A stretch of 64,000 bases of DNA. Source: an uncultured SAR86 cluster bacterium. Its GTDB lineage: Bacteria; Pseudomonadota; Gammaproteobacteria; Magnimaribacterales; D2472. Location: contig CACBGD010000001.1 in the NCBI GenBank assembly GCA_902538705.1, forward strand, positions 64,022 to 128,021, read 5' to 3'. Position 1 is the stretch's first letter. Every line of letters starts with the position of its first letter. A program made the translations under genes and the position numbers. Under the pieces are notes generated by a model that saw only the letters and a list, made by a program, of their open reading frames with translations, was not told where the DNA came from and searched no databases. Shown piece by piece: positions 12,587-15,584 of the stretch.

Positions 12587-13678
12587 GTGTCAATAAAAAA
12601 AATATCAATCTCAAATTTTCGTTGTTTTAATAGTGTTGATCTTGAATTTTCAAAACTAAATAACTTTATTCATGGAGCAAACGGCTCCGGAAAAACATCT
12701 GTACTTGAGGCTTTATATTTTTGCTCAACAGGTAGATCATTTAAAAGCTCAAACAAGAACCTCTGTATTCAAAATGATAAAGAAGCTTTCAAAATACAAG
12801 TAGAAACCTTTAACAATAATAAGATTTCTGTTTTAAAAGAATCCAAAAAATCAATTTCTTTAGAAATTGACGGAAAAAAAGCCACCTCAATTGAGCTATT
12901 TAGAACAATACCTTCTACTCTTCTCGATAATAAAACATTTTCAATGTTTGCAGACACACCAAAATACAGAAGAAAAATACTCGACAGATGTTTGATGGCA
13001 TCTGATAAAAACTATAGTAAAGATTTTTTTACCTTCCATAGGTCTTTAAAACAAAGGAATGCAGCCTTAAAATTCAAAAGGCTGACAAATATTGACATGT
13101 GGTCTGAGATATTTATAAACTCTGGAACTTCAATATCAGAAAAAAGAAACAACTTTTTTGAAGAAACCAAGCAAACTTTTTTTAACTTTGCTGAATATTT
13201 AGGTGACAAGAGGGTTCTTCAAATAATAAACTCTCTAGAAATTCTTTTTTACAAAGGATGGACTGACGACCACTCATTAAAACAAGTCCTGGAACTTAAT
13301 AGAGATTCTGACCAAAGAAAGACATCGACTTCATCAGGACCCCATAGAGCGGACATAAAATTTTTAATAAAAGATTCTGATATAAAGTACATATTATCCA
13401 GAGGAGAGCAAAAATTTATGTCAATCTTATGGTGTCTCTCAATGCACAAAACTCTATCAGATTTTTATGGAGTTAGTCCCTTTTTAATCATTGATGACAT
13501 TCATTCTGAGTTGGATGAAGATTTTTACAGTGAATTAATAATTTTTCTCCCAAAAACAGTAAATCAATTGTTTTTTTCGGACATTAATAATCCATTTAAT
13601 AGTAAAATAAAGGATCAATTAAAGGAGTTAAAAAAGTTCCACGTGGAACAATTTACTAATGCCGAAAAAACAAAATAA
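12587..13678 (+). CDS. recF: DNA replication and repair protein RecF (GTG start)
   Basis: 363 aa with Walker A ([13 protein letters not shown]), the SMC-like signature (LSRGEQK) and Walker B (LIIDDI). Confidence 0.9.
13634..13649. promoter_or_regulatory. parS-like centromere site (ParB binding) inside the recF 3' end
   Basis: AGTTCCACGTGGAACA matches 15 of 16 positions of the Pseudomonas-type parS palindrome TGTTCCACGTGGAACA. The inner 14 bp form a perfect palindrome. The site is origin-proximal and parAB are encoded about 10 kb away. Confidence 0.65.
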
Positions 13679-15584
13679 AAAAGGATCCTACGACTCATCA
13701 AACATTCAGGTTCTAAAAGGGCTTGAAGCAGTTAAAAAAAGACCAGGAATGTATATAGGTGATACTGATGACGGTTCTGGGCTTCATCATATGGTTTTTG
13801 AGGTTGTAGATAACTGTATTGATGAAGCAATGGCAGGTCACTGCTCGGAAATAGTTGTTTCAATTAATAAAAACGGGTCAATAACTGTGAAAGATAATGG
13901 CAGAGGAATACCTGTAGATACCCATAAAAAAGAAAAAGTTCCTGCAGCTGAGCTTATTATGACAACCCTTCACTCCGGCGGAAAATTTGATGATAACAGT
14001 TATAAGGTTTCCGGAGGCCTTCATGGTGTAGGTGTATCTGTTGTTAACGCACTTTCTGAGGAACTAACGCTGAAAATTTGCAGAGATGGCGGACAATATG
14101 AACAAAAATATTCAAATGGCAAAGCCCAAACAAAATTAAAAAAAGTTAAAGCTTCAAAAGAAACAGGAACTGAGATTACATTTAAGCCATCTAAAGAGAT
14201 ATTTTCTTTCGTTAACTTTGATATAGATAAGATAAATAAAAGAGTTCAGGAGTTATCTTTCCTTAATGCTGGAGTCAACATTCTTGTTGAAGATAAAAAA
14301 ACAGGTAAATCGAAGAAGTTTTCCAATAGCGGTGGATTATCTAGTTACGTTAAATTTTTAAAAGGAAGAAAACAAAACATATCTGAAATATTTCATTGCG
14401 AAGGAGAGCAAGATGGACTAACTGTTGAAATAGCCCTTCAGTGGAATGATGCATATTCAGAAAATGTTCTGTGTTATACAAATAATATTCCTCAAAAAGA
14501 TGGAGGAACACACCTTTCAGGATTTCGATCAAGCTTAACAAGGGTAATGAAAGCCTTTGTAAGAAAGGAAGAGCTAAATAAAAAATCGCCTGTTGAGCTT
14601 TTGGGTGAAGATGTTAGAGAGGGCTTAACAGCAATAGTCTCAGTAAAAATACCCGACCCAAAATTTTCATCACAAACAAAAGAAAAACTTGTATCTTCAG
14701 AGGTAGAGACTGCAGTCAGCAACGTTTTTAACAAAAACTTTAAAGATTACCTTCTAGAGAATCCGAAGGAAGCAATGTCAATCCTAACAAAAATATCTGA
14801 GGCAGCTCTTGCTAGGGAAGCAGCAAGAAAAGCTAGAGAAATGACTAGAAGGAAGGGAGTTTTAGAGGTTGCAGGATTACCAGGTAAGTTAGCAGATTGT
14901 CAGGAGAAAGATCCTGCATTATCAGAAATTTATATTGTAGAGGGTGATTCCGCTGGAGGATCAGCTAAACAAGGAAGAAATAGACAAAATCAAGCAATAC
15001 TCCCCTTAAAAGGAAAGATTTTAAATGTTGAAAAAGCAAGGCTAGACAAGGTTTTATCCTCTCAAGAGATAGGAACCCTTGTAAAAGCTTTAGGGTGTGG
15101 AATTGGAACCGATGAATTTGATGCAGATAAATTAAGATATCACAGAATAATTATCATGACAGATGCTGATGTAGACGGTTCTCATATAAGAACCTTGCTC
15201 CTGACATTTTTCTTTAGGCAAATGTTTGAAATCCTAAACAGAGGCCATGTTTATATTGCCCTGCCACCCTTATATAAAGTCTCAAAAGGAAAAAATATTA
15301 AATATGCCGCGTCAGAAAAAGAAAAAGATGCTGCTTTAAAAGAACTATCTAAAACGGGTAATAGAGGCATAGAGATACAAAGATACAAAGGTTTAGGGGA
15401 AATGAATCCAGACCAGCTTTGGACGACAACAATGGATCCCCAAAATAGAAGAATGATGAGAGTAAGGATTGATGATGCAAATGAAGCCAATAACTCTTTT
15501 GAAGTGCTTATGGGTGATCAGGTTGAGCCAAGAAGAGAGTTTATTGATGAAAACGCTCTATCAGTAGCAAATTTAGATATTTAG
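13659..15584 (+). CDS. gyrB: DNA gyrase subunit B, compact form lacking the proteobacterial insertion domain
   Basis: 641 aa. The N-terminus ([42 protein letters not shown]), [13 protein letters not shown], and the C-terminus ([25 protein letters not shown]) are GyrB-like rather than ParE-like. Lies in dnaA-dnaN-recF-gyrB synteny. Confidence 0.95.

What the first reader, a model, noticed from the sequence alone, without database searches (positions are those of the whole stretch)
13659..15584. GyrB precisely lacks the roughly 170-aa insertion domain typical of proteobacterial GyrB
The ORF is 641 aa. Only about 30 residues ([33 protein letters not shown]) separate PPLYK from [11 protein letters not shown]. 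In E. coli GyrB (804 aa) these two motifs are separated by a large inserted domain found in Gram-negative GyrBs and reported to matter for DNA binding and supercoiling. This protein is not ParE. Its N-terminus, its C-terminal [25 protein letters not shown], and the dnaA-dnaN-recF-gyrB synteny are all GyrB-specific and closely proteobacterial. It therefore looks like a natural clean deletion in an otherwise gamma-like GyrB. That bears on how dispensable the insert is, and possibly on genome streamlining.
Basis: partly seen in the sequence, partly recalled or inferred. Interest (0 to 1): 0.55.

Follow-up and report, generated by a model that had tools for sequence, protein, structure and literature searches.

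The report
SAR86 gyrase B lost its insert
This is the DNA gyrase B gene of a marine SAR86 bacterium, and the whole SAR86 group has cleanly lost a 167-residue extra domain that E. coli gyrase needs for full activity, which gives a natural test of how dispensable that domain is.

Summary
ORF 13659-15584 (+) encodes a 641-aa GyrB. It passes the gyrB equivalog model and fails both parE models. It sits in dnaA-dnaN-recF-gyrB order. One block is missing, equivalent to E. coli GyrB residues 559-725 (167 aa).

The window comes from a SAR86 bacterium. All 120 closest database proteins and 3 SAR86 genomes have the same short form (636-660 aa). The 57 other named Gammaproteobacteria that were translated and aligned all carry the insert.

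On shared columns, SAR86 groups with the insert-bearing Proteobacteria and away from native short-form GyrBs in 99.8% of bootstraps. This is therefore a secondary in-frame deletion, not a foreign gene. The gene is under strong purifying selection (dN/dS 0.013), and its catalytic motifs are invariant.

SAR86 also has a separate parE-parC pair, so gyrase is not its only type IIA topoisomerase. The scar re-creates the hairpin-helix "hook" of native short forms. No compensating changes are visible in the Toprim or tail regions of GyrB.

Seen in passing: SAR11 (Pelagibacter) GyrBs keep only about 20 residues at the insert site, a parallel loss.

I found no paper describing the SAR86 loss. I rate it a new variant of a known protein, of moderate interest.

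The parts
13659..15584 (+). gyrB, 641 aa, insert-less gammaproteobacterial-type DNA gyrase subunit B
   Evidence: ORF. Pfam HATPase_c + DNA_gyraseB + Toprim + DNA_gyraseB_C. TIGR01059 gyrB scores above its cutoff, and the parE models score below theirs.
13770..14192 (+). GHKL ATPase domain (aa 38-178)
   Evidence: PF02518, E=9e-18. E48, N52 and D79 are invariant in 26 SAR86 sequences.
14334..14840 (+). Transducer domain (aa 226-394), including the QTK loop (Q339-T340-K341)
   Evidence: PF00204, E=1.5e-57. QTK is invariant.
14925..15260 (+). Toprim domain (aa 423-534), with E428-G-D and D502-A-D-V-D-G
   Evidence: PF01751, E=1.1e-19. The motifs are invariant. Only 2 of 109 gamma-conserved columns are changed in SAR86.
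15264..15377 (+). Hook and deletion scar (aa 536-573: [38 protein letters not shown]). The junction that replaces Eco 559-725 lies near aa 562/563, about nt 15344/15345.
   Evidence: Single 167-aa gap. The AF2 model predicts strands 539-543 and 546-550, helix 553-566 and strand 571-575, with pLDDT 79-88. The region is colinear with, and the same length as, native short-form hooks.
15363..15545 (+). GyrB C-terminal tail domain (aa 569-629)
   Evidence: PF00986, E=9e-31. 0 of 50 gamma-conserved columns are changed in SAR86.
10186..13678 (+). dnaA (10186-11481), dnaN (11481-12584) and recF (12587-13678): the conserved upstream context. recF overlaps the gyrB start by 20 nt.
   Evidence: ORFs and their translations. 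The order is the same as in E. coli. It is collinear in SAR86 loci L003-L005.

Best explanation
This is the single, functional gyrB of a SAR86-clade gammaproteobacterium. An ancestor of SAR86 suffered one in-frame deletion of about 501 nt. It removed the ~167-residue domain that proteobacterial GyrBs carry at the tip of the Toprim 'hook' (E. coli residues ~559-725). The two flanks were joined: the beta-hairpin plus the start of a helix on the N side, and the end of a helix plus the strand leading into [11 protein letters not shown] on the C side. The result is a hairpin-helix-strand hook of the same length as in bacteria that never had the insert.

The enzyme therefore most likely works as an A2B2 gyrase in the manner of native short-form gyrases (Firmicutes, Thermus, Mycobacterium), without the buttress between Toprim and the GyrA coiled coil. 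Topo IV (parE-parC) is kept for decatenation.

Shown here: the anatomy, the gene's place with the insert-bearing Proteobacteria (within or at the base of the gammaproteobacterial GyrBs), the clade-wide distribution, intact catalytic motifs, very strong purifying selection, and the presence of topo IV.

Inferred: that the enzyme supercoils, and that the loss is tolerated. Tolerance could come from compensation elsewhere (GyrA, or the fast-evolving ATPase and transducer half of GyrB) or from a small, slowly replicating genome needing less gyrase efficiency.
For: Domain architecture and gyrB equivalog score. Two-stretch match to E. coli GyrB. Single 167-aa gap, with flanks colinear with short-form hooks.

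The best 49 of 1.84 billion cluster representatives are all 688 aa or longer, and the first native short form ranks about 50th at 52% identity. All 77 named non-SAR86 hits of the genome scan have matches of about 2400 nt apart from two short non-proteobacterial ones, and the 57 named Gammaproteobacteria that were translated are 793-856 aa. All SAR86 sequences are short.

NJ with 500 bootstraps: SAR86 is monophyletic in 100%, groups with long-form Proteobacteria in 99.8%, and is sister to short forms in 0.2%. Sliding-window identity favours long forms over short forms and ParE everywhere outside the junction.

dN/dS is 0.013 against the nearest species. Catalytic residues are invariant. The AF2 hook is confidently folded. 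SAR86 contigs carry parE plus parC.
Against: No biochemical data exist. Engineered E. coli insert deletions lose 25- to 50-fold in supercoiling and lose DNA-stimulated ATPase (PMC2995079), so activity cannot be taken for granted.

No compensating substitutions are seen near the scar. The NJ backbone inside the Gammaproteobacteria is unresolved: SAR86 sits on a long branch at the base, and gamma+SAR86 has only 69% support. A second gyrB elsewhere in the genome could not be excluded, because only 64 kb is in hand. The exact breakpoints are ambiguous by about 5-10 residues.
Confidence: 0.88

Rival explanations
1. Xenologous replacement: SAR86 acquired a native short-form gyrB from a non-proteobacterial donor.
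For: The protein also passes the short-form model PRK05644 (954 bits against a cutoff of 740). The hook has the short-form length and shares 46-51% identity with Krumholzibacteriota and Cloacimonadota hooks.
Against: Overall identity to long-form gammas is 61-68%, against 55-56% to the best short forms. The highest-scoring model is the 803-position long-form PRK14939 (1108.6 bits). In only 0.2% of bootstraps is SAR86 sister to short forms. Long-form identity is equal to or above short-form identity in every window outside the junction. Only 3 of 22 SAR86-fixed substitutions match the short-form majority.
Confidence: 0.02
2. Primitive absence: SAR86 branched off before the insert was gained, and so never had it.
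For: In the NJ tree SAR86 sits at the base of the gammaproteobacterial GyrBs, not nested within them (nested in only 17% of bootstraps).
Against: The alphaproteobacterial outgroups (Rickettsiales MAG, 800 aa; Minwuia, 810 aa) carry a homologous insert at the same site. Proteobacteria, acidobacteria, chlamydiae and aquificales all have it (PMC2995079). Absence in SAR86 would therefore need several independent gains at one site. The basal position goes with the longest branch in the set, which is the usual long-branch effect.
Confidence: 0.04
3. Gene conversion: the hook of gyrB was overwritten by the insert-less hook of the resident paralog parE.
For: Gram-negative ParE has no insert, and its hook is nearly the same length. 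SAR86 does have parE.
Against: Hook identity between the window GyrB and five SAR86 ParEs is 0.32-0.45, no higher than the whole-protein paralog background of 0.39-0.41. The sequence just after the hook is GyrB-type ([15 protein letters not shown], against [15 protein letters not shown] in ParE). An ancient conversion whose signal has since decayed cannot be excluded.
Confidence: 0.05
4. Artefact or decaying gene: a mis-assembly, a pseudogene, or a mislabelled ParE.
For: None found.
Against: The same architecture occurs in hundreds of independent assemblies and in a single-cell genome. dN/dS is 0.013. The ParE models score below their cutoffs. Catalytic motifs are invariant.
Confidence: 0.01

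Closest known systems
Long-form proteobacterial GyrB (NCBIfam PRK14939; E. coli GyrB, PDB 6RKS, 3NUH)
   Same: It is the closest in sequence: 892 bits to E. coli GyrB, and 61-68% identity to 57 named gammas. It has the same four core domains, the same catalytic motifs and the same dnaA-dnaN-recF-gyrB context.
   Different: It lacks the whole 167-aa insert (Eco 559-725). In E. coli the insert braces Toprim against the GyrA coiled coil and is needed for DNA binding, DNA-stimulated ATPase and efficient supercoiling (PMC2995079).
Engineered E. coli GyrB insert deletions (delta L561-E720, and delta T565-R731 + GSSG; PMC2995079)
   Same: Essentially the same segment is removed. The natural breakpoints (about 559-725) are closest to the older L561-E720 construct.
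   Different: The engineered proteins lose 25- to 50-fold in activity. The SAR86 protein has been kept under strong purifying selection as the clade's gyrB. It keeps a helix (aa 553-566) built from both flanks, rather than an artificial linker.
Native short-form GyrB (NCBIfam PRK05644; Firmicutes, Thermus, Mycobacterium, Bacteroidota and others)
   Same: Same length class (about 640 aa). Same hairpin-helix-strand hook, of the same length. It passes the model cutoff.
   Different: Only 47-57% identical. It is phylogenetically separated from them in 99.8% of bootstraps. The short form in SAR86 is derived, not ancestral.
Gram-negative ParE (TIGR01055)
   Same: An insert-less paralog of about 630 aa with a similar hook.
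   Different: About 40% identity. The model score is below its cutoff. SAR86 encodes its own ParE (630 aa) with ParC next to it.
SAR11 / Candidatus Pelagibacter GyrB (685-691 aa; found here in passing)
   Same: A proteobacterial GyrB from another abundant, streamlined marine lineage in which the insert is almost gone (66-67 residues across Eco 535-750, against 216 in E. coli and 49 in the window).
   Different: It is alphaproteobacterial, so the event was independent. About 18-20 residues remain at the site, and there is an extra loop of about 20 residues in Toprim after ILNT.

Membership tests
DNA gyrase subunit B (TIGR01059 equivalog) | Whole-protein score above the curated equivalog cutoff, and above the scores for the parE models | tested here: met
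   965.3 bits against a cutoff of 882.4. parE_Gpos scores 763.3 (cutoff 899.95) and parE_Gneg 620.7 (cutoff 723.35).
DNA gyrase subunit B (TIGR01059 equivalog) | GHKL ATPase + transducer + Toprim + C-terminal tail, with the catalytic residues (ATPase Glu/Asn/Asp, QTK loop, Toprim E-G-D and DxDxD) | tested here: met
   Four Pfam domains. E48, N52, D79, Q339-T340-K341, E428-G429-D430 and D502-A-D-V-D-G507 are invariant in 26 SAR86 sequences.
DNA gyrase subunit B (TIGR01059 equivalog) | Genomic context typical of bacterial gyrB (dnaA-dnaN-recF-gyrB) | tested here: met
   ORFs 10186-15584. Same order as E. coli.
DNA gyrase subunit B (TIGR01059 equivalog) | ATP-dependent negative supercoiling together with GyrA | not testable with these tools
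   This needs purified SAR86 GyrA and GyrB. gyrA is not in the window.
Long-form (insert-bearing) proteobacterial GyrB (PRK14939) | Sequence affiliation with proteobacterial GyrBs | tested here: met
   Best NCBIfam model, 1108.6 bits. Nearest relatives are all long-form gammas. 99.8% bootstrap with long-form Proteobacteria.
Long-form (insert-bearing) proteobacterial GyrB (PRK14939) | Insert of about 170 aa at the tip of the Toprim hook (Eco D562-R732) | tested here: not met
   Single 167-aa gap, Eco 559-725. The model is matched in two stretches.
Native short-form GyrB (PRK05644) | Length of about 640 aa with an uninterrupted hook | tested here: met
   954.3 bits against a cutoff of 740, one stretch, 4-641 = 3-641 of 641. 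Hook alignment.
Native short-form GyrB (PRK05644) | Common descent with short-form lineages (short by ancestry) | tested here: not met
   Sister to short forms in 0.2% of bootstraps. At most 57% identity.
Topoisomerase IV subunit B (ParE) | Score above the parE equivalog cutoffs; pairing with parC | tested here: not met
   Below both cutoffs. The real SAR86 ParE is a different 630-aa protein, about 40% identical, with parC next to it.

The most novel reading that the evidence does not exclude
Loss of the GyrB insert is a convergent trait of the ocean's dominant streamlined Proteobacteria: complete in SAR86 and about 90% in SAR11. It would reflect either selection for smaller proteins or a relaxed or re-tuned need for gyrase efficiency in small, slowly replicating genomes. 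Compensation would lie outside the Toprim and tail regions, in GyrA or in the fast-evolving ATPase and transducer half of GyrB. On this reading the SAR86 enzyme, about 66% identical to the Pseudomonas and E. coli GyrBs, would be the closest natural partner for working out what the insert really does.
Probability: 0.3. Interest if true: 0.6.

Novelty: new variant of a known kind. Interest (0 to 1): 0.42.

Why it matters
The ~170-aa GyrB insert is treated as a hallmark of Gram-negative gyrase. In E. coli it is needed for DNA binding, DNA-stimulated ATPase and efficient supercoiling. The authors of its structure asked whether gyrases without it carry compensating changes (PMC2995079).

SAR86 provides a natural, clade-wide, selectively maintained deletion in a protein only about 34% diverged from the Pseudomonas and E. 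coli GyrBs. That is a far closer comparator than Gram-positive enzymes. Domain-swap, chimera and cross-complementation experiments therefore become straightforward to design.

The parallel near-loss in SAR11 suggests that the insert can be dispensed with under oligotrophic, streamlined lifestyles. This bears on protein-level genome reduction. It also bears on gyrB-based marker and primer design, and on using GyrB length for taxonomic binning of marine metagenomes.

Tried and rejected
(1) An NJ tree of 163 sequences (150 cluster representatives plus others) gave 100% support for SAR86 but an unresolved backbone, because of fragments, intein-bearing GyrBs and unnamed taxa. I replaced it with a tree of 79 named sequences.

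(2) I looked for positions that discriminate long-form from short-form GyrBs across all representatives. None met the thresholds, because the long-form set was too diverse. I redid the analysis with the 57 gammas.

(3) An apparent shortage of SAR86-fixed changes in Toprim and tail (20:2, Fisher p=0.0007) weakened once controlled. Other gamma lineages also show about 2:1 (262:124), and the window sequence alone shows 27:15. I therefore claim only that there is no excess of change near the scar.

(4) The AF2 model from a shallow, SAR86-only alignment was poor overall (mean pLDDT 63). Only the 500-620 region is used. Foldseek against the PDB returned GyrB and ParE as expected and added nothing.

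(5) Cluster look-ups named few of the representatives.

Only 3 SAR86 genomes were returned, and no genome could be searched whole for a second gyrB.

(7) SAR86 gyrA could not be retrieved, so co-variation at the coiled coil and at the acidic tail of GyrA was not examined.

(8) Literature searches pairing SAR86 with gyrase, gyrB or topoisomerase found nothing relevant.
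Full report
OBSERVATION. The ORF at 13659-15584 (+) is real and encodes 641 aa. dnaA, dnaN and recF lie directly upstream, and recF overlaps the gyrB start by 20 nt. This is the same order as in E. coli K-12. Pfam finds HATPase_c, DNA_gyraseB, Toprim and DNA_gyraseB_C. NCBIfam's gyrB equivalog is passed (965 against 882) and both parE equivalogs are failed. 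The single best model is the 803-position long-form PRK14939, matched in two stretches. Against solved structures the best hit is E. coli GyrB (892 bits): query 9-557 = Eco 3-553 and query 557-641 = Eco 720-804. In a careful alignment with 57 long-form gammaproteobacterial GyrBs the gap is one block, Eco 559-725, 167 residues. A cruder alignment split it in two, so the breakpoints are uncertain by roughly 5-10 residues.

WHOSE GENE IT IS. The 120 best hits among 5.8 billion clustered proteins are 78-98% identical, and all are 636-660 aa. Those that carry names are 'SAR86 cluster bacterium' or 'Gammaproteobacteria bacterium'. A scan of one genome per GTDB species returned SAR86 single-cell genome AG-893-L08 (98% protein identity) and two other SAR86 genomes at 78%, all short. 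The window is collinear with the AG-893-L08 contig over 9.9 kb at 85% nucleotide identity, so it is a related but different species. The short GyrB is thus a trait of the whole SAR86 clade as sampled.

DELETION OR FOREIGN GENE. In a search of 1.84 billion cluster representatives, the best 49 hits are all long proteins matched in two stretches. The first true short form ranks about 50th at 52% identity. In the genome scan, 75 named hits at 61-68% identity all have matches of about 2400 nt; the 57 Gammaproteobacteria among them that I translated are 793-856 aa. The only other short hits are Krumholzibacteriota (56%) and Cloacimonadota (55%). I built a neighbour-joining tree on 600 shared columns, leaving out the junction, with 500 bootstraps. 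SAR86 is monophyletic in 100% of replicates. SAR86 plus all insert-bearing Proteobacteria separate from all native short forms and ParE in 99.8%. SAR86 is sister to short forms in 0.2%. Its position within the gammas is not resolved: it sits on the longest branch at their base, and gamma+SAR86 against alpha has 69% support. Sliding-window identity favours long forms over short forms and ParE in every window except the one that spans the junction, so there is no sign of a chimera. The alphaproteobacterial outgroups carry a homologous insert at the same site. The insert is also known from several phyla (PMC2995079). Secondary loss is therefore far more parsimonious than primitive absence.

THE SCAR. 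The E. coli flanks (…YIKDDEAMDQYQIS | insert | [22 protein letters not shown]) align residue for residue with the SAR86 hook (…[14 protein letters not shown] | [22 protein letters not shown]). The resulting hook has the same length, within 1-3 residues, as in native short-form GyrBs and ParE. An AlphaFold2 model was poor overall (shallow alignment, mean pLDDT 63) but confident across residues 500-620 (block means 79-88). It predicts strands 539-543 and 546-550, helix 553-566 and strand 571-575, which is the canonical hairpin-helix-strand hook. The published structure describes the insert as leaving and re-entering at the tip of the hook (PMC2995079), which explains why excising it can be sterically clean. 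The natural breakpoints lie closest to the older engineered deletion L561-E720. Both engineered E. coli deletions lose 25- to 50-fold in supercoiling, and the precise one loses DNA-stimulated ATPase altogether.

IS IT FUNCTIONAL, AND IS ANYTHING COMPENSATING? Against the AG-893-L08 ortholog, dS is about 1.0 and dN is 0.013 (dN/dS 0.013), with 14 amino-acid differences. The ATPase, QTK and Toprim catalytic residues are invariant across 26 SAR86 sequences. I then looked at columns conserved in at least 90% of the 57 gammas. SAR86-fixed substitutions at those columns number 11/131 (ATPase), 9/85 (transducer), 2/109 (Toprim) and 0/50 (tail). Only 3 of the 22 match the short-form majority. Other gamma lineages also change more in the N-terminal half (262:124), and the window sequence alone shows 27:15. 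The safe statement is that there is no excess of change, and no convergence toward short forms, near the scar. The hook itself is the most variable segment within SAR86 (50% identity between families, against 78% overall). SAR86 GyrB is the fastest-evolving gamma GyrB in the set: distance to the alpha outgroups is 0.54-0.59, against 0.44-0.46 on average and at most 0.50 for the others. If compensation exists, it lies in GyrA or is diffuse. gyrA is not in the window or in any fetched locus.

TOPO IV. No GyrB paralog is in the window. I scanned metagenome contigs for the ParE-type motif [10 protein letters not shown] written with an AGR arginine codon, which is the SAR86 preference. Five of the contigs returned have tetranucleotide composition that correlates at 0.97 with the window. 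Each carries a 632-636-aa ORF that is 55-57% identical to E. coli ParE and 38-40% identical to the window GyrB. One of these ORFs is 99% identical to an NCBI protein named 'DNA topoisomerase IV subunit B [SAR86 cluster bacterium]'. In two of the loci a gene 52% identical to E. coli ParC over its full length lies immediately downstream. SAR86 therefore keeps a complete topo IV, and its gyrase is not the cell's only type IIA enzyme. Hook identity between the window GyrB and these ParEs (0.32-0.45) is no higher than the paralog background (0.39-0.41), so gene conversion by parE is not supported.

CONTEXT FOUND IN PASSING. The same scan returned dozens of contigs of 26-30% GC encoding GyrBs of 685-691 aa. 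Exact-sequence look-ups name these 'Candidatus Pelagibacter sp.' or 'Pelagibacteraceae bacterium'. They have 66-67 residues across Eco 535-750, compared with 216 in E. coli, 204-211 in other alphas, 49 in the window and 46 in a native short form. Only about 18-20 insert residues remain. SAR11 has thus independently lost about 90% of the insert. Two unidentified low-GC marine contigs (L102, L125) keep a full insert, so low GC alone does not predict loss.

LITERATURE. The insert's structure, its role and its 'sporadic' distribution are published, and the question of compensation in insert-less gyrases was raised there (PMC2995079; see also PMC6821735). Full-text searches pairing SAR86 with gyrase, gyrB or topoisomerase found nothing on this point.

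VERDICT. This is a bona fide, selectively maintained, gamma-type GyrB that lost the insert by a clean in-frame deletion in the SAR86 ancestor. It is a new variant of a known protein, not a new kind of system. Its value is as a natural experiment on a domain regarded as critical in E. coli, and the parallel in SAR11 adds to that value. Three things are unproven: enzymatic activity, the location of any compensation, and the absence of a second gyrB in a complete genome.

Noticed in passing
L139, L103, L120, L199, L093, L164, L126, L133 (metagenome loci): SAR11 (Candidatus Pelagibacter / Pelagibacteraceae) GyrBs are 685-691 aa and keep only about 18-20 residues at the insert site. This is an independent, near-complete loss of the same domain in an alphaproteobacterial streamlined lineage.
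   Followed up: partly
L139 and the other SAR11 loci, Toprim region after ...PLRGKILNT: SAR11 GyrBs carry an extra loop of about 20 residues (for example YVEEIVLKKNSNRDGSEHRTKSLAKMM) where other GyrBs read [13 protein letters not shown]. Its function is unknown.
   Followed up: no
L143 3519-5723; L184 7225-9450: In SAR86-like contigs, parC lies immediately downstream of parE, as an adjacent topo IV gene pair. In E. coli the two genes are about 7.5 kb apart.
   Followed up: partly
window 16320-17681 (-): The glycyl-tRNA synthetase is the single-chain dimeric type (TIGR00389 / PRK04173, 453 aa). It is not the two-subunit GlyQ/GlyS enzyme that, from my own knowledge, is usual in Gammaproteobacteria.
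   Followed up: no
window 13659-13678: The gyrB start codon lies 20 nt inside the end of recF, which suggests translational coupling within the dnaA-dnaN-recF-gyrB cluster. dnaA and dnaN also abut.
   Followed up: no
window 15264-15377 (GyrB aa 536-573): The hook that carries the deletion scar is the least conserved part of GyrB within SAR86: 50% identity between SAR86 families, against 78% overall.
   Followed up: partly
window 13659-15584, compared with 57 gamma GyrBs: SAR86 GyrB has the longest branch of all gammaproteobacterial GyrBs sampled. Distance to the alpha outgroups is 0.54-0.59, against at most 0.50 for the others.
   Followed up: partly
L102, L125 (metagenome loci): Two unidentified marine contigs of 29-31% GC encode GyrBs of about 777-805 aa with a full insert. 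These are counter-examples to a simple link between low GC and insert loss.
   Followed up: no
P0141 (701 aa), P0209 (697 aa), P0251 (690 aa), P0126 (760 aa): Unnamed cluster representatives have intermediate insert lengths (about 50-120 residues). Insert size therefore varies continuously among GyrBs, rather than being all or nothing.
   Followed up: no
window 4741-9979 (-) and 10186 onward (+): This is the classic origin-region arrangement. mnmG, mnmE (from its translation), yidC and rnpA are on the minus strand, diverging from dnaA-dnaN-recF-gyrB on the plus strand. The window therefore probably spans the replication origin.
   Followed up: no
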